Origin: an uncultured Candidatus Peribacteria bacterium
Lineage (GTDB): Bacteria > Patescibacteriota > Gracilibacteria > Absconditabacterales > Absconditicoccaceae
Direction: 5' to 3'
Assembly: GCA_964491325.1 (NCBI GenBank)
Contig: CAZBFX010000001.1
Span: forward strand, 1,807 to 56,905
Length of the DNA: 55,099 nucleotides
Shown in pieces: positions 23,846-43,200 of the stretch; position 1 is the first letter of the stretch; each line of letters opens with the position of its first letter. Both the position numbers and the translations under genes were made by a program. The notes beneath the pieces are model-generated. The model did not search any database. It was not told the DNA's origin and saw nothing but the letters and a program-made list of their open reading frames with translations.

Positions 23846-25267
23846 CTATTTTCCTTTGCCAACAAACAATACTGTAACAGTTGCTAGTATAATATAGAGA
23901 TCAAGAAAAATAGACCAGTTTTGTAAATAGAGGAGTTCCTTTTCTGCTTCTTCGTCGAAGGAGATGGTGTCTCTTCCATGTATCTGGGCATAGCCAGTAA
24001 TGCCTGGTTTTACTGAAAGCACTCTTTTGTGCCGAGCTTTATACTTTTCTATCTCATGAGGCATATGTGGTCTGGGTCAGACCAAAGACATTTCTCCCAT
24101 CAATACATTTCGTAGACTAGGTAATTCATCAAGCGATGTAGCTCTTAGAAATTTACCTACAGGAGTCACTCTCGGATCATTTTCTATTTTTGCTAGTTCT
24201 CATTTTCTGACATTTGCTTTTGAGTTTACTAACTTTTGGTATAGATCTTCGGCACTCTTGCCTCCATAATCTTTTCAGGGACTAAGATGTGTATACATAC
24301 TACGAAACTTCACAAACGTAAATGATTTCATATTTCTCCCTATTCTTGTCTGTTTGTAGAATATAGGTCCCGACGAGTTTACTTTGATAGCTATCCCAGT
24401 GATGATAAACAGCGGTAATAGTATAGCCAATCCTAGAGCACTTACTATAGTATCAAAAAATCTTTTGATAAGTATTCACCATCATTCTAACTCTGTCGCT
24501 CTATATCTTAAAGCCAACATATTCCCTATTTTACTTGTTTCATAGGATACATCCTCAAGAAAGTGATTGTCTGCTATATGATACAGCTGTTGATTGTGTA
24601 GTCTCACACTATCAAATATGTTTTGTATGGCATCTTTATCATAGCTTCCAATAAGTACTATCGTATTAAAATTATTGATATCTACTTTATTGTATGAGTT
24701 AGTATAATCTACATATGTAACAGAATAGTAATGTGGTCGTTTATGATCTTTGATATTATGATAATGTACTTCTTCACGATACAGTATGAGAATCTTTTCA
24801 TTATCTTTTTTAAATAGATGGTGTGAAATGCGTTGCCAAAATATATCAAAAAGAGGTATAAATATAAGCGTCCCTGTGGCTGCTCGTCCAATAATAAGTC
24901 TCGATATGCCATAAGGGAAAAGAAATCCTTGACCAAAATATGCTAAGCATATCAAGATAATCGTTCGCTGTCACCACACATACAAAAATGAACCATTACT
25001 TGTGATGCCTATGTCTGTCAGATTGTATCGTTTTTTTACTATTCCTACGCCGATAAATACTACAACACTGATGATGGCGAATAGTATTAATTCTGTTGTG
25101 TCAATGAATGGTATTCTGAGATGCCATCATGGTATGCCATCTGTTATGAGACGAGTATAGTATCCTAGAAAATATAAAAAGAATATAATCAGACTGTGGA
25201 AGAGAGGTCTCGCTAGATTAATAAATAGGTCTTTATGATCTTTTCGTCGACTATTATGCATCATCAT
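23846..25267 (-). CDS. polyprenyl glycosylphosphotransferase (WbaP/EpsL-type bacterial sugar transferase)
   Basis: C-terminal PF02397-like domain: [61 protein letters not shown]-terminal TM region. Fragments 23846 and 24482 are in one frame, and the gap was checked for stops. True TAG stop. Start is one of the ATGs at 25259-25267, or 25297. Overlaps the rsmI 3' end. Confidence 0.85.
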
Positions 25268-25961
25268 TGTCACTATCAATAAAAGCTCCTCATCCATGAG
25301 GATAGATGCCTATAACAAACTCTCCCTTTAGAGGGATGATGTTTTGATTTATTGCTCCTTGTATTTCTTCTAAAGTACCGGTATAGTATTGTTCAAATAC
25401 TTTTGATATTTCTCTTGTTATGCTCAGCTTACCACTGAATCACAATGTTGTCAGCTGTGAGAGAAGTTTATCGATTCTATGGACTGATTCGTAAAAAAAT
25501 GATGCATGATCTGCATGTATCATTTGCTTGAGTGCCGTTTCTCTTCACTTTTTATGAGGAAGGAAACCATAAAAAGACCGCTTTACTGTGGGAAATCATG
25601 ATCCAATAACCGCTGGTATAATGGCATTTGCTCAGGGAAGTATACTATATGGAATATTGTTTTCTTGTGCCCATAGTATCAGTAACTTTCATGGATCAGA
25701 TAATCCGGGAGTTCACGCTTCGCTGACCATACAGACATCTGACTCTTTCATTATATGTATAAAGTTTTCTTTATGGCGAAGATCATGTGATGTGAACTTT
25801 ACAAACTTTTTTGTGCTATAGCCTATATTGTGTATGCCAAGAAGTCTTTTGATACTTTGAGTGTTCTCACAAAAAATGATGCTCGTCTCAGTCAGCAACT
25901 TTAGTGCTCTGAGTGTAATATCATCTTTATTGCCAATAGGTGTCGGTACAATGCATAGCAT
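25254..25961 (-). CDS. rsmI: 16S rRNA 2'-O-ribose C1402 methyltransferase RsmI
   Basis: MLCIVPTPIGNKDDITLRALKLL..IFCENT..VSEA(G)TPGLSDPG is the tetrapyrrole-methylase-fold RsmI signature. Continuity checked. Stop TAA 25254-25256. Confidence 0.85.
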
Positions 25962-25972
25962 GTTGGGTGATA

Positions 25973-26773
25973 TTACTTTTGAAACATTGTTCTTAATTTT
26001 GCCTTTATGAGAATCTTATTTTGATACATCATTTGTATCACAGCAAAGAGTGTTGATGTAATGATGTATAATCCGATACCTGCAGCCACATTATAGACGA
26101 ACCATCCTATCATAACAACAAGGAATATATTCATAAACCCCATCATCTTACTCATGTCGGGCATATTTGCTCAAGGAATACTTGGAGTAGCTGGTCTCAC
26201 TCGAGTCATAATCTTCATATTCAAGAACATAACAACTCATGCTATACATGCTAGTATGACATTCTTTGGTGTGAGCATATCCATCCCGAGAAAATTGGTC
26301 GCGATATTTGTTATGTCTATCATAGCATGTGCATACGGATAGACAAAGCTATATGTCATGTCTATGAGATTTGTAGGAAACTTCATTCGTTGTTGCATAT
26401 TTTCAGGGTTTGCAATATTAGATACTACCGCGTAGAGTCAGAGGAAAACAGGCATTTGTAAGAGTATGCCAAGACATCATTTGAGTGGTCAGACACCATC
26501 TTTTTTAAGTAATGTCATCATTTCTTGTGAGAGTTTTTCAGGATTGTCTTTGTATTTCTCTTGTAGTTCTTGCATTTTCGGTTGCATAGCACCCATGCCA
26601 GATTGCATGGCATTAGCTTGAGATGATGATTTTGAAAGCAGCAATCTGACTAAAACTGTCAGGGCAACAATCGCTAATCATAGATTTCCATTAAAGAGCT
26701 CAAGAAAAATCAGGAGGAAGTTATATACGGGGCGAAGTATAAGTTCGTTTCGGAAGAGTTGTATAATTCACAT
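25973..26773 (-). CDS. yidC: membrane protein insertase YidC (short form)
   Basis: ..GLAIVALTVLVRLLL..MQPKMQELQEKYKDNPEKLSQEMMTLLKKDGV(G)PLK(G)CLGILLQMPVFLGLY.. and C-terminal AGIGLYIITSTLFAVIQ. Continuity checked. True TAA stop. Confidence 0.85.
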
Positions 26774-26797: not shown

Positions 26798-27337
26798 TTA
26801 TATTGTTGTTATGTCATCATGTTTCCCTTTGACCATGGTATCAATACTATCATTAAACTTTTTTGTTATGGCGTCAATGTCAGATTCTTTGTTTTTCTTT
26901 TCATCTTCGGAGATTATCTTTTCTTCAAAGAGTTTTTTTACCTCCTTTAATTCATCCTGTCTTGCTACTCTTATCCTTGCCTTACATTCTTCAGCCATCT
27001 TTGATACTTGTTTTTTGAGTTGTTCCCTTCTTTCAGTTGTGAGTACTGGTATTTTTATAAGGAGATATCATCATTGATTTTGAGGTGCAAGTCATGTCGC
27101 TGCGTCATAGATTGCTTTCTCTGTTGGTGCGAGAGATGATTTATCTCGTGGTTCTATCTTGAGTGTCTGTGCATCGACGACACTTATATTTGCTATTTGT
27201 CCTATAGGCATATATCCATATGATGTATCTATTTTGATGTGTTCTACAAGTCATTTATTTGCTCTTCCAATTTGTACTCCTGTTAGTTCTGTTGCAAGAT
27301 AGTCCACAATTTTTTGCATATTTACTTCACAGTCCAT
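26798..27337 (-). CDS. frr: ribosome recycling factor
   Basis: ..GVQIGRANKGLVEHIKI..IPVLTTERREQLKKQVSKMAEECKARIRVARQDE.. is an RRF pattern. Continuity checked. Start 27337 (alternative 27319). Confidence 0.85.
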
Positions 27338-37412: not shown

Positions 37413-37509
37413 CGAGTTTATAGGTTTGTAAAGCCCGTCTGACGAACAGGTAGATTATAAAGTTTGTAAAGTGCTTGCAATTATTGCTCGTGAATAGTAT
37501 ATTACGGAT

Positions 37510-39300
37510 ATGACTTCTTTTTTCAAATCAATTATTGTCTTTTGTATTCGTCTCTATCAGTATACACTTTCTCCAGATAGATGATTGCTCTCACCTCGAT
37601 TGCGTGGTCGTATTTGTAGGCATCAGCCACATTGTAGTGAGTACTGTCTCCAGACAGTCAGACAGTATCCTTTTTTTACTTGAATATGGCGTAGTATGGA
37701 TAGAATAAGTCGTTGTGGACCAGGTCAGGGAGGTGGCTACGATCCTGCAACATATCGTGTTGTTTTTTGTAGTAGTGCTCCTATTGGTGTACCTTTTTTG
37801 GAGGCATTGTGGCATGATGATCGTTATGATGTCGTGGGTGTCTTGACGATGCCCGATATGCCCAGTGGGAGATGATTGCAGATGCAGGAGAATATTATCA
37901 AGACGAAAGCGAAAGAGTTAATGCACAATGCAGAATGAATAATGCACAATAATAAATATGCAGTTAAACCTATACCTAAAATAATACTAGTACATGGTAA
38001 AGATACTGATCCCTCACAAAAGCGGTATCCTCATTTTATAGATGATATCAAAGATGCTTGAATAAATGCTTTTGCACCTCATTTGCCTCATAGTTCAGAT
38101 CCTTTGTTACCAGAATGGTTAGGCGAATTAGGTAATCTCAATATAGATGAAGATACTATTTTGGTCTGACATTCTCTTGGAGGTGTCGCTATTTTACGCT
38201 ATTTAGAGAAAACTCAGCAGAAAGTAAAGAAAGTTATTTTGGTGGCTACGAATGACTCGATATATTCTGAATCGAGTAATGGTTTTTTTTCGGACAAGGA
38301 TTACGATTATACATTACTGCAATCTGTCTGTCATGATTATGTCGTGTATCATTCGACTGATGATGAGCGAGTTCCTTTTTTACATGGAGAAAAGATAGCG
38401 AAATGACTTAATGCTAAGTTTTTTACTTATCATGACAAATGACACTTTGGTAAGAGTCTTATTGATAATAAATTTCCAGAGCTTATAGACGAAGTTTTGA
38501 TAAATACTACATTTATCCAAACTACTCACTCGCTGCGTCTGGACTCGAAGAAATATGCACACGAAGCAGCAGAGACCTATGATCGATTGCAGGCATTGGA
38601 TATCGATTATCTCGTTGTCATCGCTTATGGACATATCATCCCGCAACACATTCTCGATATCCCTCGTATCGCTCCTATCAATATTCATGGATCGCCACTT
38701 CCGCTTTACCGTGGTGCATCGCCTATCCAGACAGCATTGCTTGATGGGCAGGAAGAGACAGGTATTACTATTATGAGGATGGTAGCTGAGCTCGATGCAG
38801 GAGATATGATCCGTTCCTATCGTTTTCCTCTTCCACTGTCTTGGACTGCGAGAGATGTGATCGACAAGATGCAATCTGTCTGACCGCATTTCTTGACAGA
38901 GACATTGGATGGACTGTCACATGGTGAGTATGGCTATACCCCCCAGGAGTCAGATAAAGCTACTTTTTGTGGTAAGATTGAGAAAGAGGACGGTGAGCTT
39001 TCTTTGCTCCATGAGAATCTTATGCATATATACAACAAATATAGGGCTTATTACCTCTGGCCAAAGATATATTTTCGAATGTATCATACACAGACAGAGG
39101 AGAAGAAGAGAGTTATCATCGAAGATATGCAGCTCGATGAGTGACTGTATCTGTTGCATAGCCATAAGCCTTTGTGTGATAGGCATTATATGCTCAACTG
39201 TACTCTCGTATCATGTTCGGTGAAAGTGGAAGGCAAGAAAGCTATTACTCGAGCTGAACGAGTAGCTACCTATACGAAGAACAATCGATCCATGCTTTAG
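37510..39300 (+). CDS. fmt: tripartite fusion: YidD + methionyl-tRNA formyltransferase interrupted by an alpha/beta-hydrolase (YdeN/RBBP9-like) domain
   Basis: One 596-aa frame, every codon 37510-38500 checked, no TAA/TAG. YidD: SP..CRHQPHCSEY..RISRCGPGQGGGYDP. Fmt N-terminal part: YRVVFCSSAPIGVPFLEAL..VVGVLTMPDMPSGR(G). Insert: ILVHGKDTDP..LV(G)HSLGGVAILRYL..D..H. Fmt remainder: VVIAYGHIIP..INIHGSPLPLYRGASPIQTALL..ETGITIM. Confidence 0.8.
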
Positions 39301-40229: not shown

Positions 40230-43200
40230 TTGTCTGCGGAGGCTGTCTCTTTTTGCTTTATTATGATATCAGCCTATACTTTCGGTAGAAATATTTTACC
40301 CATATGGTATAGACAGATGGCATCAGGACAATCACAGGATCATGCACAGGATCGTATTGATCTTCATATCAGTCAGACGGGGAATACATTCTCTGCTAGT
40401 GATTTACAGAAGATCGATACTATTCTCGAAGCGTATATAGTCGACAATAGCGATAATTTCCATAAACTTATCGAGAATAACCCCCAGACTTCACTGGATG
40501 ATATCATAGACAATGCCTGATTATTGCTCGATGATATGCTTGTATCTCCCGATAAAGGTGAGAAAGAGATATGGCAGTTTCTCATCGATAGCAAACTAGC
40601 ATGATTGGAAAAACATACAGAGATGTTGGCAAATATCACGCAGTACAAGAGCGAACTCAAGTGACTCAAGATAGCTGTCGCTCAGCGAAACCTTGGCGGG
40701 AATGCTCCGTCAGATAAGACGAGTGTCGTCAAAGCGACCACGAATACTGTCTCTGGAGATGAAGAACAATCAAGGGGTAAGTCTATTGATCAATCCTGTG
40801 TCGGTTGTAAAATACCTGTTTTAGAACATGAAGTGTCAGATACAGAAGATATGCAGCATCCAGCAGTCGATGTGGTTCCTGGTAAACAATGAGAAAGACT
40901 CGAAGATCGTGCATGACCTGATAATACAGTCAGCAAAGTTCCTTTTGGTCCGCTCAAATGATATGTCCCTGGACAATGATATCTTGTCGATAATAAGGGT
41001 GCAGATGGAGGAGAGAATACGAGATACGATATCGATGGGAAAAACGAGAAAAGAGTCGATAGAAAAGCCATGAAAAAACTTTTCCTATGAGGCATAAGTT
41101 GATTTCTCAATCGTCCAGAGAAAGAAGTCGATATGGTCGTCGAAGGAGAGAAGATAGGACCAAAGCATAAAAATGAACTGAAGCAGTTCTGGAAAGCTGT
41201 CAGAAAAATGGGTGTTGATAATTTCGGTGAATACTTTATTGATGTAAGAGATGCTTATGGAGCTGGTCATGATATTACATCCAAAGACTTCTGGAAAGAT
41301 GCAGACTATACTAGTAAAGTAGCTAAAAGAAAAGAATCTAAAACACTTGCTCTCATCGGTACTATCTATACGAACTATAGAGATCTCGAAAATAAACCAT
41401 ACTCAGGGACATATATGGAGAGACTTATTGGTACAATCGAAAATGATATCGCCGATAATGCACGAGAAGATAATATTGCTGGCGAAGATAATGCTGATGC
41501 AGAAGGTAATACTTCTTATCAGTCATTCGATGCAAGTAAATCCTACAACAAACATAATGATAATGCCGAGGTGACACTTGCTGATGATCACCATATCTTG
41601 ATCAATAAAACAAGTAGACTTAATGAATCGCTCAATATCGATGAGAGAAAGTGAGTGAAAGAACTCTTCAAGCTTAATGGAGATAGAGATACTCTCTATG
41701 ACTTCGATGCAGTGATGAAAGTAGTCCGTCAGCATGAACATAAGAAGATCGATGTCGCTAACGTCATCAATGCAACTGCCAAGTGAAAAAAACTCATCGG
41801 TCCTAATGGTAGTCTCAATGATCAGGAGAAAGAACTCTATGAGACACGACAGCAAATCGATAATGATGATACATCGACGCAGAGGATGGTCATGGAGTGA
41901 CTTGCTATGGGTATGAGACCAGAGTATATCGCCAATGTAAAGATGTTGATCGATAAGACAGGATATATTGATGAAAATGAAGTATTTCATGAGAACTGAT
42001 TAGATCATGAGCAATATGGTAATGAAGCAGATGGTGGCATTATTACTCCTGAAGTTCACTTCGTGGGATGTATCGAAGATATCACCGTCAATGGTAAGAC
42101 AGACTTCGGAGATAAAGGTATCATGAGTGGTCTCCAGTTTCGTGCACTGTTTCAGACGGCAGTGAATGAGATAGCATTTGATAGATCATGTTCACACCAT
42201 GAAGCTCAGCAGAGAGCAGTCTACAATATCGTCTGTTTCGTCTCTCAGAAAGCTCTCGAACTCTGACACTATGATCTTCATAGTCACCTCCAAGCTGTCT
42301 TATCGAAGGCAGTCGATGGGAAACTGGATGCGACATGACTAGTGAAGAGTGGTGATGGGTTTCTCTCTCTTCACCCTGGCTATCTCAAAGGATTTCAGGA
42401 TATTATGCTCCAGAGTCCTGTCCCTGTCGATGCCATCATGAAGTATGGTACTACTGGCTTTGTTGAAAATCAAAAAGAAACGAAGCGTTCATTCGATAAG
42501 TATGCAGAACAACTCGGTGTATCCAAAGAAGAACTCGATAAAATCAATAACTTTGGTAGTACGCAATGGAAGAATCTCATGTCTGAAGCTGCTGAGAGAA
42601 GTATGACAGATATGATTGCGGGAGAAAGAGAGGCTTTTATCCAACAGATCAATGCTGCTGTCCTTGACTATGTCATCCAAACGAGAAATGCTGGATGAGT
42701 CGGTGTAGGAGTAAGTGCATCACTTGATACTATACTCAAAGGACTCTCTGCACATCTCGCTCTCGGTGTGGTCTGATGAGATGGGTCAGGTAGTTCGCCT
42801 ATGGTATGATTCTCTCTCGGGCATCATGTCGATATGGGAAGATGACGATCACTCAATACATGAGCGTGATCGAGTCTCACACTTGCTGGATTTACACCAT
42901 TTCTCGGACAATCGATCAGCAAAGAACGAGAACTCAATAAAGATAAACTCAAGAAAACACTCGATGCAAAGCCTCTCGTCACTGCACATGTCGGTGTCAA
43001 CTATGGTGTCGTCATGTTTGGTCCTATCGTCTCACCGACTATCGGTATCCACACTGGTATCGACATCAATCGTCAAGCAGGTATCGAACGTGAATATGCT
43101 GCTATCCGTACGAAGATGAAATCCGTCACCGATAAGCTCTTCAAGATTGATTGATTACTCCCAGATCTTACGACTATTAGAAGCTCTGCTGTCCTCTTTG

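What the first reader, a model, noticed from the sequence alone, without database searches (positions are those of the whole stretch)
37510..39300. YidD fused to Fmt, with an alpha/beta-hydrolase domain nested inside the formyltransferase
A single 596-aa frame was checked codon by codon and has no TAA/TAG. It starts with a complete YidD membrane-insertion-factor motif set ending in GGYDP, then runs with no intervening ATG into the Fmt N-terminus (RVVFCSS..MPDMPSGRG). After ..KTKAKELM, about 190 aa of a YdeN/RBBP9-type serine hydrolase are inserted (ILVHGKDTDP.., nucleophile elbow G-H-S-L-G-G, later D and H). Fmt then resumes at the strand that normally follows (INTTFIQT..VVIAYGHIIP..HGSPLPLYRGASP). 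I do not recognise this YidD-Fmt fusion or domain-in-domain arrangement as a described architecture. It might link initiator-tRNA formylation, a hydrolase activity (deformylase- or esterase-like?) and membrane insertion in a reduced genome.
Basis: partly seen in the sequence, partly recalled or inferred. Interest (0 to 1): 0.78.

Follow-up and report, generated by a model that had tools for sequence, protein, structure and literature searches.

The report
YidD–Fmt fusion with swappable nested hydrolase
In this TGA-recoded candidate-phylum bacterium, the enzyme that formylates initiator tRNA is fused to a small membrane-insertion factor and carries a complete serine hydrolase spliced into one surface loop, and across the lineage that same loop holds different inserted domains or none, which makes it a natural hot spot for domain insertion in an essential gene.

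Summary
Window 37510-39300 (+) is one 596-codon ORF under code 25 (10 in-frame TGA, no TAA, one terminal TAG). Pfam finds YidD (aa 7-79), Fmt split in two (aa 80-138 and 335-596) and a YdeN/RBBP9-type serine hydrolase (aa ~157-330) nested between Fmt helix α2 and strand β3. Three other assemblies carry the same ORF (1 mismatch in 1791 nt, no gaps). AlphaFold2 models are confident (pLDDT 92-94.5, pTM 0.85).

The architecture is not unique:
- YidD-Fmt is the standard Fmt of Absconditabacterales/SR1: 72 of 74 complete ORFs in 80 species representatives.
- The insert is strain-variable. A 96%-identical relative and a 77%-identical one lack it.
- The same loop is a lineage-wide hot spot. It holds at least four hydrolase types, a DUF559 nuclease, a GNAT-like domain, hairpin mini-elements, or stacks of two or three domains. 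Hosts 87-92% identical carry different cassettes.
- The insert equals a whole free-standing ~180-aa Patescibacteria hydrolase (~50-54% identity).

Best reading: an autonomous hydrolase passenger in a permissive loop, gained by recombination with another fmt allele. A functional link to formylation is not supported but not excluded. No description was found in the searchable literature.

The parts
37475..37503 (+). Promoter-like site (TTGCAA-17-TATATT) in the 97-nt divergent intergenic region shared with holA; its -10 element ends 7 nt before the ATG
   Evidence: Consensus scan only; not evidence of function
37510..39300 (+). Single 596-codon ORF (code 25) encoding YidD-Fmt with the nested hydrolase; stop TAG at 39298-39300
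   Evidence: identical in three other assemblies
37510..37746 (+). YidD domain (aa 1-79), ending in GGYDP; invariant C/H/C motif CxHxPHCSxY...C
   Evidence: PF01809 64.6 bits and TIGR00278 58.2 bits, both above cut-off; invariant columns in alignment A3
37747..37923 (+). Fmt N-domain, first part (aa 80-138): β1, α1, β2, tRNA-binding loop 1 (PDMPSGRG, Arg121) and helix α2
   Evidence: phmmer aligns aa 81-140 to Fmt residues 7-63; Arg121 is conserved in 74/74
37899..38513 (+). Replacement tract: 615 nt here versus 45 nt in the 96%-identical relative L001 (net +570 nt, +190 aa); GC 33% against 43% for the host gene
   Evidence: blastn and mismatch maps; GC and TGA usage
37920..37950 (+). 10-nt direct repeat AATGCACAAT x2 (37920-37929 and 37941-37950), encoding M-H-N twice at the left linker; the second ATG (M145) may be the relic start codon of the once free-standing hydrolase gene; low-confidence linker in the model
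   Evidence: Read from the sequence; pLDDT 54 for P0001 residues 81-90; free-standing homologs start 2-10 aa before ILVHGKD
37978..38499 (+). Nested α/β-hydrolase domain (aa ~157-330), YdeN/RBBP9 family (PF06821); catalytic Ser222 (38173-38175), Asp285 (38362-38364), His312 (38443-38445)
   Evidence: Pfam; PDB sequence hits 1UXO and 2QS9, about 1e-12; Foldseek 1UXO TMt 0.86 and 7OEX TMt 0.82; triad conserved 86/86, 86/86, 87/88; co-linear end to end with free-standing ~180-aa proteins
38512..38904 (+). Fmt N-domain, second part (aa 335-465): β3 onward; catalytic Asn391 (38680-38682), His393 (38686-38688), Asp429 (38794-38796); unique L-to-P at codon 396 (38695-38697) in the SLLP motif
   Evidence: PF00551 profile positions 67-180; residues conserved 74/74; SPLP found in 1 of ~200 homologs
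38905..39297 (+). Fmt C-terminal (tRNA-binding) domain, aa ~466-596
   Evidence: PF02911 weak, 20.2 bits against cut-off 21.1; the model aligns to whole Fmt, 2FMT_A TMt 0.80

Best explanation
The gene makes one polypeptide. Its scaffold, YidD fused directly to methionyl-tRNA formyltransferase, is the ordinary Fmt of Absconditabacterales (SR1). YidD probably tethers Fmt to the cytoplasmic face of the membrane (inferred from what is known of E. coli YidD). In this lineage a complete, catalytically intact YdeN/RBBP9-family serine hydrolase has recently been spliced into the α2-to-β3 loop of the Fmt Rossmann fold. It arrived by homologous recombination with another SR1 fmt allele that already carried the cassette. 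Such a loop lies on the side of the fold away from the formyl-transfer site, so both enzymes fold and most likely work independently. Fmt still formylates Met-tRNAfMet. The hydrolase acts as an autonomous aminoacyl/peptide-type hydrolase, like its free-standing Patescibacteria relatives, and simply shares the expression and location of an essential gene. The loop is a lineage-wide permissive hot spot where domain cassettes (several hydrolase types, a DUF559 nuclease, a GNAT-like domain, hairpin elements) are gained, lost, swapped and stacked. Shown here: the architecture, its distribution, the cassette variability, the origin of the insert, intact catalytic residues and the foldability. Inferred: recombination as the mechanism, independence of the two activities, the substrate class and membrane tethering.
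For: Architecture and integrity; four assemblies agree; no internal terminators or convincing internal promoter. Fold: AF2 pLDDT 92 and pTM 0.85 for the window protein (P0001), and 94.5 and 0.85 for the full-length three-part homolog P0007; Foldseek gives Fmt 2FMT_A TMt 0.80 spanning the insert, YdeN TMt 0.86 and RBBP9 TMt 0.82. Fusion is lineage-wide: about 400-aa PF01809+PF00551 proteins dominate the 120 listed hits (508 at E<=0.001); 80 of 80 species-representative loci match across the junction, and 72 of 74 complete ORFs hold both motifs, all with in-frame TGA. Recent gain: L001 (96% nt identity) and L002 (77%) lack the insert and share a homologous 19-aa loop. The α2 end and β3 start were replaced together with the insert, and mismatches cluster just 3' of it (5 in 25 nt, Poisson P=0.0014), so the donor tract included fmt sequence. 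Code-25 residency: 5 of 13 insert Gly codons are TGA, against 35% window-wide. Hot spot: loop length runs from 14 to 577 aa at one alignment position; contents are confirmed by Pfam (DUF559 5.7e-28, weak GNAT signal, several hydrolase types); tandem stacks occur in P0004, P0006 and P0038, continuous under code 25; cassette-bearing proteins are scattered over the core tree; hosts 87-92% identical carry different cassette types that are only ~25% identical to each other. Origin: the insert is 50-54% identical, end to end, to free-standing ~180-aa hydrolases of Parcubacteria, Falkowbacteria and others. Selection: hydrolase triad and Fmt Asn/His/Asp invariant; omega = 0.20 for the host core against L001. 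Independence: contexts of free-standing homologs show no fmt/def/map linkage.
Against: No coordinates were available, so the distance between the hydrolase Ser222 and the Fmt active site or tRNA path was not measured; placing the loop on the distal face rests on the general rule for α/β folds. α/β-hydrolases of one Pfam family make up about 70% of domain-size cassettes and were captured as at least four divergent types, which could mean selection for a hydrolase-Fmt pairing rather than mere tolerance. pTM 0.85 suggests a defined inter-domain arrangement rather than a loosely tethered one. The window allele has a unique L-to-P change in the conserved SLLP motif, so full Fmt activity is not certain. 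The direction of change (gain here rather than two losses) is by parsimony only. No expression or protein evidence exists.
Confidence: 0.6

Rival explanations
1. Functional coupling. The nested hydrolase works on Fmt's own substrate or product stream. It might deacylate un-formylated or mischarged aminoacyl-tRNAfMet (an ester with a free α-amine), or trim N-terminal residues of nascent chains at the membrane. The three parts would then form one initiation and quality-control machine.
For: RBBP9, the characterised family member, forms an aminoacyl-enzyme with single hydrophobic residues including Met, requires a free α-amine (AcMet-AMC is not cleaved), and may cleave amide, ester or thioester bonds (PMC8866121). 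RBBP9 Glu108, which anchors the α-amine, aligns with a Glu in the insert, present in 49 of 69 aligned family members. Hydrolases of this one family are the commonest cassette and were captured repeatedly, even in tandem. pTM is 0.85. Precedent from general knowledge: the CP1 editing hydrolase domains nested in the Rossmann fold of class Ia aminoacyl-tRNA synthetases.
Against: A 96%-identical strain does without the insert. About 85% of species lack any domain-size cassette. Unrelated cassettes (DUF559 nuclease, GNAT-like, an unknown domain, hairpins) use the same loop. Free-standing homologs are common in standard-code Patescibacteria with no fmt/def/map neighbourhood. The insertion point is an α-to-β loop, normally opposite the active-site face.
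Confidence: 0.2
2. Tolerated but functionless passenger. The insert is a neutral or slightly harmful insertion fixed by drift in a small population, and the hydrolase activity is irrelevant or decaying.
For: The acquisition is very recent. The insert has lower GC than the host gene (33% against 43%). The host carries a unique L-to-P change in the SLLP motif. SR1 genes also tolerate in-frame hairpin elements.
Against: Ser222, Asp285, His312 and the HG oxyanion motif are all intact, with no frameshift or stop, in four assemblies. Related cassettes keep the triad over divergence down to ~25% identity. The model is confident.
Confidence: 0.12
3. Self-propagating (homing-type) mobile cassette. The insert spreads through its own or a partner nuclease rather than by host recombination and selection.
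For: In relatives the same loop carries DUF559 (Vsr-like nuclease) cassettes bracketed by perfect GC-rich hairpins, and solitary hairpins. In P0038 a DUF559 cassette sits directly upstream of a hydrolase.
Against: The window's insert has no nuclease, no hairpins at either junction and no intein-type motifs. No GC-rich hairpin elements were found in the 55-kb window.
Confidence: 0.05
4. Artefact or pseudogene: a chimeric assembly, a frameshifted gene, or separate genes misread because of the genetic code.
For: The ORF needs 10 TGA read-throughs. TIGR00460 scores below its cut-off because the match is split.
Against: The code is window-wide. TGA sits at invariant Gly positions. Four independent assemblies agree without gaps. 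The same architecture recurs in dozens of divergent genomes. omega is 0.20. The models are high-confidence.
Confidence: 0.02

Closest known systems
Bacterial methionyl-tRNA formyltransferase (E. coli Fmt, PDB 1FMT/2FMT; TIGR00460; PF00551 + PF02911)
   Same: Two-domain layout; Asn/His/Asp catalytic residues; loop 1 with the conserved Arg; Foldseek TMt 0.80 to 2FMT_A.
   Different: N-terminal YidD fusion; a 190-aa hydrolase domain in the α2-β3 loop; SLLP changed to SPLP; TIGR00460 score 169.6, below the 201.5 cut-off, because the match is split.
YidD, membrane protein insertion efficiency factor (PF01809 / TIGR00278; E. coli YidD, Yu et al. 2011 as cited in PMC8082313)
   Same: Full-length match above both curated cut-offs, with the conserved Cys/His motif set.
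   Different: Not a separate ~85-aa protein in an rnpA-yidD-yidC operon. Here it is fused to Fmt, and yidC lies about 11 kb away next to frr.
YdeN (B. subtilis, 1UXO) and RBBP9 (human, 2QS9/7OEX) serine hydrolases, PF06821; free-standing ~180-aa Patescibacteria homologs (P0121-P0175)
   Same: Same fold (TMt 0.82-0.86); Ser-Asp-His triad; same length; 50-54% identity to the Patescibacteria proteins over the whole length.
   Different: Nested inside another enzyme instead of free-standing; encoded with TGA-Gly codons. Substrate unknown. RBBP9's aminopeptidase activity is a lead, not a test.
Nested (domain-in-domain) enzymes, e.g. the CP1 editing domains inserted in the Rossmann fold of class Ia aminoacyl-tRNA synthetases (general knowledge)
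   Same: A hydrolase domain inserted in a loop of a Rossmann-type domain of a tRNA-handling enzyme; the parent fold closes around it.
   Different: CP1 is ancient, universal and functionally integrated. This insert is strain-variable, interchangeable with unrelated domains, and derives from a free-standing gene.
In-frame selfish insertions in coding genes: Rickettsia palindromic elements, and inteins with homing endonucleases (general knowledge)
   Same: In relatives, GC-rich hairpin elements and a DUF559 nuclease cassette are read through in frame at the same Fmt loop and elsewhere in the gene.
   Different: No splicing domains. The window's own cassette is an ordinary enzyme with no hairpins or nuclease.
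End-to-end formyltransferase fusions (ArnA, 10-formyl-THF dehydrogenase, HypX, the F domain of gramicidin synthase)
   Same: A formyltransferase domain combined with other catalytic domains in one chain (hits).
   Different: Those are serial fusions with a fixed partner and coupled chemistry. This one is nested and variable.

Membership tests
Methionyl-tRNA formyltransferase (Fmt) | N-terminal formyltransferase domain with catalytic Asn-His-Asp | tested here: met
   PF00551 at 3.1e-25; Asn391, His393 and Asp429 present and 74/74 conserved in homologs
Methionyl-tRNA formyltransferase (Fmt) | Conserved HxSLLPxxRG motif | tested here: inconclusive
   The window has HGSPLPLYRG. Pro at the first Leu occurs in 1 of ~200 homologs; its effect on activity is unknown.
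Methionyl-tRNA formyltransferase (Fmt) | Fmt-specific loop 1 with conserved Arg, and a C-terminal tRNA-binding domain | tested here: met
   PDMPSGRG with Arg121 (74/74). PF02911 is weak at 20.2 against cut-off 21.1, but the model aligns to whole Fmt, TMt 0.80.
Methionyl-tRNA formyltransferase (Fmt) | Equivalog HMM score above the curated cut-off (TIGR00460) | tested here: not met
   169.6 bits against 201.5. The match is split in two by the insert, so the shortfall reflects architecture and not divergence.
Methionyl-tRNA formyltransferase (Fmt) | Formylation of Met-tRNAfMet | not testable with these tools
   Needs a complementation or enzyme assay
YidD (PF01809 / TIGR00278) | HMM scores above the curated cut-offs with the conserved motif set | tested here: met
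   64.6 bits (cut-off 27) and 58.2 bits (cut-off 40); invariant C30/H32/H35/C36/C63 and D72/P73 in A3
YidD (PF01809 / TIGR00278) | Small free-standing protein encoded next to yidC/rnpA | tested here: not met
   Fused to Fmt; yidC is at 25973-26773 (-) beside frr and an RsmI-like gene
Ser_hydrolase PF06821 (YdeN/RBBP9) | HMM score above cut-off and the α/β-hydrolase fold | tested here: met
   45.4 bits in the whole protein and 49.1 bits for the isolated insert, against cut-off 22; Foldseek 1UXO TMt 0.86 with rmsd 2.2 Å, 7OEX TMt 0.82
Ser_hydrolase PF06821 (YdeN/RBBP9) | Ser-Asp-His triad with a G-x-S-x-G elbow | tested here: met
   G-H-S222-L-G-G, D285 and H312; conserved 86/86, 86/86 and 87/88
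Ser_hydrolase PF06821 (YdeN/RBBP9) | Aminopeptidase / aminoacyl-hydrolase activity needing a free α-amine (shown for RBBP9) | not testable with these tools
   Only a Glu aligned to RBBP9 Glu108; needs an enzyme assay
Intein / homing-endonuclease insertion | Hint splicing domain or a nuclease domain within the insert | tested here: not met
   No such Pfam hit in the window protein. DUF559 occurs only in relatives' cassettes.
Palindromic in-frame mini-elements (RPE-like) | GC-rich hairpin at the insert or its junctions | tested here: not met
   None at 37899 or 38513, nor elsewhere in the window. Present in relatives L011 and L012.

The most novel reading that the evidence does not exclude
The Fmt α2-β3 loop of Absconditabacteria is a docking site for enzymes that act on the initiator aminoacyl-tRNA or on new N-termini, not merely a tolerant one. 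On this reading the nested RBBP9-type hydrolase is an editing or quality-control deacylase, or an N-terminal trimming enzyme. It would remove free-amine (un-formylated or wrong) aminoacyl groups, with formylation protecting the correct product. The GNAT-like cassette in relatives would be an alternative N-acylating module. This would be a newly evolved, still-polymorphic analogue of the CP1 editing domains of aminoacyl-tRNA synthetases, positioned at the membrane by YidD.
Probability: 0.12. Interest if true: 0.85.

Novelty: new variant of a known kind. Interest (0 to 1): 0.64.

Why it matters
There are three reasons it matters.

1. It shows that a whole order of uncultivated, TGA-recoded bacteria makes its initiator-tRNA formyltransferase as a fusion with the membrane-insertion factor YidD. 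I found no paper describing this pairing. It raises a testable question: is formylation, or Fmt itself, localised at the membrane or insertase in these organisms?

2. It documents a natural, ongoing domain-insertion experiment in an essential enzyme. One loop accepts, swaps and stacks complete enzymes between near-identical strains. That is directly useful for protein engineers looking for permissive sites in Rossmann folds. It also bears on how multidomain and nested proteins arise, because intermediate states are rarely caught while still polymorphic.

3. It suggests a route by which very small genomes with little regulatory space can acquire and express accessory enzymes, by recombining them in frame into a constitutively expressed gene.

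There is also a practical point. Annotation pipelines name these proteins either "YidD" or "Fmt" and miss the nested domains.

Tried and rejected
- **Regex anchoring:** anchoring the loop with regular expressions failed for about a third of sequences. It was replaced by an E-INS-i alignment referenced to the insert-less L001 protein.
- **Code-25 input refused:** I used the database copy P0001 (code-4 translation, W at TGA positions, starts at M62) and the full-length homolog P0007.
- **Misassembly or frameshift:** rejected after three further assemblies matched.
- **Fresh import from a standard-code donor:** rejected, because 38% of the insert's Gly codons are TGA.
- **Direct capture of a free-standing gene at this locus:** disfavoured. 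The α2 end and β3 start changed together with the insert and look like fmt sequence from other lineages, and mismatches cluster just after the insert.
- **Hairpin or nuclease-mediated insertion for the window cassette:** no hairpins at the junctions or elsewhere in the window.
- **Deformylase in the window:** no EGC[LMI]S or HExDH motif in any frame. This says nothing about the rest of the genome.
- **Conserved neighbourhood linking free-standing hydrolases to fmt/def/map:** not found in four contexts.
- **Single ancestral insertion with vertical descent:** rejected for the loop as a whole, because hosts 87-92% identical carry cassette types only ~25% identical. Within type A, the module tree is roughly congruent with the host tree, so older vertical inheritance with losses is not excluded for that type.
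- **Literature:** five of the six literature searches (YidD + formyltransferase; Absconditabacteria + formyltransferase; YidD + CPR terms; domain insertion + Fmt; YidD + YidC) found no description of the fusion or the hot spot.
- **Searches deliberately not run:** I ran no further search on type-B cassettes, or the representative-library search, because neither would change the verdict on the window.
Full report
**1. The observation**

Window 37510-39300 (+) is one open frame of 596 codons if TGA is read as a sense codon. It contains ten in-frame TGA, no TAA, and a single TAG at the end. The nearest upstream in-frame stop is at 37495. The whole window is recoded: the rpoB- and rpoC-sized ORFs carry 28 and 29 TGA. 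In this gene TGA falls on positions that are Gly in relatives. One example is the first Gly of the nucleophile elbow G-H-S-L-G-G, a column where 72 of the 86 sequences in alignment A2 (free-standing and nested) have Gly. The GRG of Fmt loop 1 is another. Code 25 is therefore the right table.

Pfam finds:
- YidD at aa 7-79 (64.6 bits).
- Ser_hydrolase PF06821 at aa 196-315 (45.4 bits).
- Formyl_trans_N at aa 352-465, covering only profile positions 67-180.
- A weak Formyl_trans_C at aa 489-535.

TIGR00460 hits in two stretches. phmmer against PDB chains aligns aa 81-140 to Fmt residues 7-63 and aa 354-526 to residues 75-246. The hydrolase is thus nested between Fmt helix α2 and strand β3. YidD runs into Fmt β1 with only a three-residue linker and no possible start codon.

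**2. It is not an artefact**

The database copy of this protein (P0001) is encoded on three further contigs from two ENA assemblies and one NCBI assembly. They share the same neighbours: holA-like on the other strand, prepilin peptidase downstream, then a giant ORF. The 1791-nt ORF differs by one substitution and no gaps. The gene has no internal terminator-like site. A promoter-like site sits just upstream of the ATG.

**3. Fold**

I ran AlphaFold2 with a composite alignment of nested, insert-less and free-standing hydrolase sequences. It gives mean pLDDT 92 and pTM 0.85 for the window protein, using the database copy, which starts at M62 and has W at TGA positions. Only the N-terminal linker into the insert is uncertain.

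Foldseek aligns the model to whole Fmt, with the insert spanned as a gap (2FMT_A, TM 0.80 on the target). The insert aligns to YdeN (1UXO, TM 0.86, rmsd 2.2 Å) and RBBP9 (7OEX, TM 0.82). A full-length three-part homolog (P0007) models at pLDDT 94.5 and pTM 0.85, with the YidD part at 89-96 and a long N-terminal helix.

**4. The YidD-Fmt fusion is the lineage norm**

The 120 listed hits of the homolog search (508 in all at E<=0.001) are dominated by ~390-420-aa proteins with PF01809 + PF00551. Sources name them either "YidD" or "methionyl-tRNA formyltransferase", from Absconditabacterales/SR1. Candidatus Absconditicoccus praedator is among them.

I then scanned one genome per GTDB species with an alignment of the YidD-to-Fmt junction region. 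It returned 106 relatives, of which the best 80 were kept. All 80 match across the junction and all use in-frame TGA. Of the 74 complete ORFs, 72 contain both the YidD and the Fmt catalytic motifs. These include the complete SR1 genome RAAC1_SR1_1, oral taxon HOT-345 and Vampirococcus lugosii.

In the window, yidC lies about 11 kb away next to frr. So yidD has left its usual rnpA-yidD-yidC setting.

**5. The nested hydrolase is recent and strain-variable**

The closest relative (L001, 96% nt identity on both sides) and the next (L002, 77%) encode YidD-Fmt without the insert, in the same synteny. In the window, 615 nt (37899-38513) replace 45 nt of L001.

The two insert-less relatives share a homologous 19-aa loop. 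One gain in the window lineage is therefore more parsimonious than two losses.

The replacement takes the C-terminal half of α2 and the start of β3 with it: TKAKELM…INTTFIQTTH here against ATSWKLKDKSVDFSIQTPH in L001. Mismatches also cluster in the 25 nt after the insert (5 observed; Poisson P = 0.0014 at the background rate). The donor DNA therefore contained fmt sequence. In other words, it was another fmt allele that already carried the cassette.

The insert uses TGA for 5 of its 13 Gly codons, like the window average of 35%. So it has long lived in a code-25 genome. Its GC content is 33%, against 43% for the host gene.

**6. The loop is a hot spot**

I aligned the database hits plus the window protein and its two insert-less relatives (120 sequences). 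The segment between ENIIK and SLRLDSKKY ranges from 14 to 577 aa. Besides short ordinary loops it contains:
- α/β-hydrolases of at least four or five types, only 21-29% identical to one another.
- A DUF559 (Vsr-like) nuclease, Pfam 5.7e-28.
- A GNAT-like segment (weak Pfam hits).
- An unknown 110-130-aa domain.
- Short GC-rich palindromes read in frame.

Cassettes are also stacked: DUF559 + hydrolase (P0038), two hydrolases (P0004), and GNAT-like + two hydrolases (P0006, 978 aa). All are continuous under code 25.

In the unbiased species sample, 60 of 77 classifiable loci have ordinary loops, 6 have hairpin-size inserts and 11 have domain-size inserts.

Cassette-bearing proteins are scattered over the tree of the host core. 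Closely related hosts differ in what they carry:
- P0012 (type A) and P0026 (type B) are 90% identical in the core.
- P0040, P0011 and P0101 carry three hydrolase types at 87-88% core identity.
- P0057 (GNAT-like) and P0084 (hairpin) are 92% identical.
- P0017 (hydrolase) and P0048 (none) are 91% identical.

Cassette content is thus uncoupled from host descent.

**7. Where the insert comes from and what it may do**

Searched alone, the insert is 50-54% identical over its whole length to free-standing 175-195-aa proteins. Sources label them as Patescibacteria, Parcubacteria, Falkowbacteria and Jorgensenbacteria. Some are fused to NUDIX, and one genome has two in tandem. The nested segment corresponds to the entire free-standing protein, from a few residues before ILVHGKD to PELI/LDEI. 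A second ATG with a 10-nt direct repeat in the left linker may be the relic of its start codon.

The catalytic Ser222, Asp285 and His312 are invariant across nested and free-standing members (86/86, 86/86, 87/88). The Fmt Asn391, His393, Asp429 and loop-1 Arg121 are invariant across hosts (74/74). The host core has omega = 0.20 against L001.

The best-characterised family member is human RBBP9. It is an aminopeptidase that forms an aminoacyl-enzyme with single hydrophobic residues, Met among them. It needs a free α-amine, and its authors note it may cleave amide, ester or thioester bonds (PMC8866121). A Glu in the insert aligns with RBBP9 Glu108, which holds that amine.

Contexts of four free-standing homologs show no association with fmt, def or map. 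Peptidase genes (S51, C15) are sometimes nearby.

**8. How it most likely works**

Shown here:
- One chain with three folded parts.
- Both catalytic centres intact.
- A scaffold that is universal in the order.
- An insert that is recent, interchangeable and derived from a free-standing gene.

Inferred:
- YidD anchors Fmt at the membrane. This rests on the E. coli work by Yu et al. 2011, cited in PMC8082313; I could not read the original.
- The α2-to-β3 connection lies on the face of the Rossmann fold opposite the C-terminal strand ends where formyl transfer occurs. This is the general rule for α/β folds; I had no coordinates to measure it.
- The loop therefore tolerates insertions, and the hydrolase acts independently, probably on aminoacyl or peptide-type substrates.
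- Cassettes move between fmt alleles by homologous recombination through the very conserved flanking codons. In some lineages, hairpin elements and the DUF559 nuclease may help.

I put about 0.6 on this passenger-in-a-hot-spot model. About 0.2 goes to real functional coupling with Fmt's substrate or with nascent N-termini, and about 0.12 to a tolerated but useless insert. The remainder goes to a homing-type element or an artefact.

Two points argue for coupling: hydrolases of one family predominate among the cassettes, and RBBP9's chemistry fits an aminoacyl ester with a free amine. Three points argue against it: the near-identical strain without the insert, the unrelated cassettes at the same site, and the lack of any fmt linkage for free-standing homologs.

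**9. Comparison with what is known**

Each part is a clear member of a known family (Fmt, YidD, PF06821). Two formal exceptions follow from the architecture. TIGR00460 scores below its cut-off because the match is split. YidD is neither free-standing nor next to yidC.

One feature is uncertain: the window allele has HGSPLP where about 200 homologs have L, I or, rarely, another residue. Pro occurs only here.

Nested domains as such are well known, for example the CP1 editing domains of aminoacyl-tRNA synthetases. So are in-frame selfish insertions, such as Rickettsia palindromic elements and inteins. What I did not find described is the YidD-Fmt fusion, or a polymorphic multi-cassette insertion site in an essential enzyme. 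The proteins are in public databases but are named as plain YidD or Fmt.

**10. Verdict**

The more interesting result is the wider pattern: an order-wide YidD-Fmt fusion whose α2-β3 loop is a natural hot spot for gain, exchange and stacking of whole domains, with the window capturing a very recent gain. I rate it a new variant of a known kind, with interest about 0.64.

Noticed in passing
window 38695-38697 (codon 396): The window allele has Pro in the conserved formyltransferase SLLP motif (HGSPLP). The 96%-identical relative has Leu, and Pro occurs in only 1 of ~200 homologs. This may be a mild functional change in Fmt that arose around the time the insert was gained.
   Followed up: partly
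L012 557-1870 (P0084) and L011 4001-5599 (P0032): Relatives carry GC-rich perfect DNA hairpins read in frame inside fmt (e.g. CCCTCTTTG…CAAAGAGGG and CCCCTTTGCAAAGGGG, encoding …KEGEGGDF-type peptides). The DUF559 nuclease cassette is bracketed by two such hairpins. This resembles Rickettsia palindromic elements. Similar peptide motifs occur in a second loop of the Fmt C-domain (P0012, P0057, P0109).
   Followed up: partly
L010 3001-5937 (P0006, 978 aa); P0004 (797 aa); P0038 (777 aa); L019: Up to three complete domains (GNAT-like plus two different hydrolases) are stacked in tandem in the same Fmt loop as one continuous code-25 ORF.
   Followed up: partly
window 25973-26773 (-), 26798-27337 (-), 25254-25961 (-): yidC (60KD_IMP, 4.6e-41) lies next to frr (RRF) and an RsmI-like methylase, about 11 kb from the yidD-fmt gene. 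So yidD has been uncoupled from its usual rnpA-yidD-yidC neighbourhood.
   Followed up: partly
window 37920-37950: A 10-nt direct repeat AATGCACAAT occurs twice, 21 nt apart, in the left linker of the insert. It encodes M-H-N twice. The second ATG may be the relic start codon of the once free-standing hydrolase gene.
   Followed up: no
P0089 / L063 (579 aa); P0146, P0149, P0160 (311-314 aa): A NUDIX domain is fused to the C-terminus of YidD-Fmt in one SR1 lineage. The free-standing relatives of the nested hydrolase are themselves fused to NUDIX in Falkowbacteria-type genomes. NUDIX thus recurs as a partner of both components.
   Followed up: no
L095 5001-5546 and 5573-6151: Two free-standing PF06821 hydrolase genes sit in tandem in a standard-code Patescibacteria genome, mirroring the tandem nested hydrolases seen in SR1 Fmt loops.
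   Followed up: no
window 40230-45929 (+) and 45893-49114 (+): Two very large ORFs (1899 aa with 50 TGA, and 1073 aa with 27 TGA) lie directly downstream of the prepilin peptidase. They are conserved in synteny in L002 (1945 aa, no Pfam hit). They may be pilus or surface proteins of this epibiont.
   Followed up: no
window 37475-37510: The promoter-like -10 element ends only 7 nt before the ATG, and there is no clear Shine-Dalgarno sequence. The gene may be expressed from a leaderless or very short-leader mRNA.
   Followed up: no
L002 and L005 (both from assembly ERZ27249658): The insert-bearing species and its 77%-identical insert-less relative co-occur in the same sample, which gives an opportunity for recombination between fmt alleles.
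   Followed up: no
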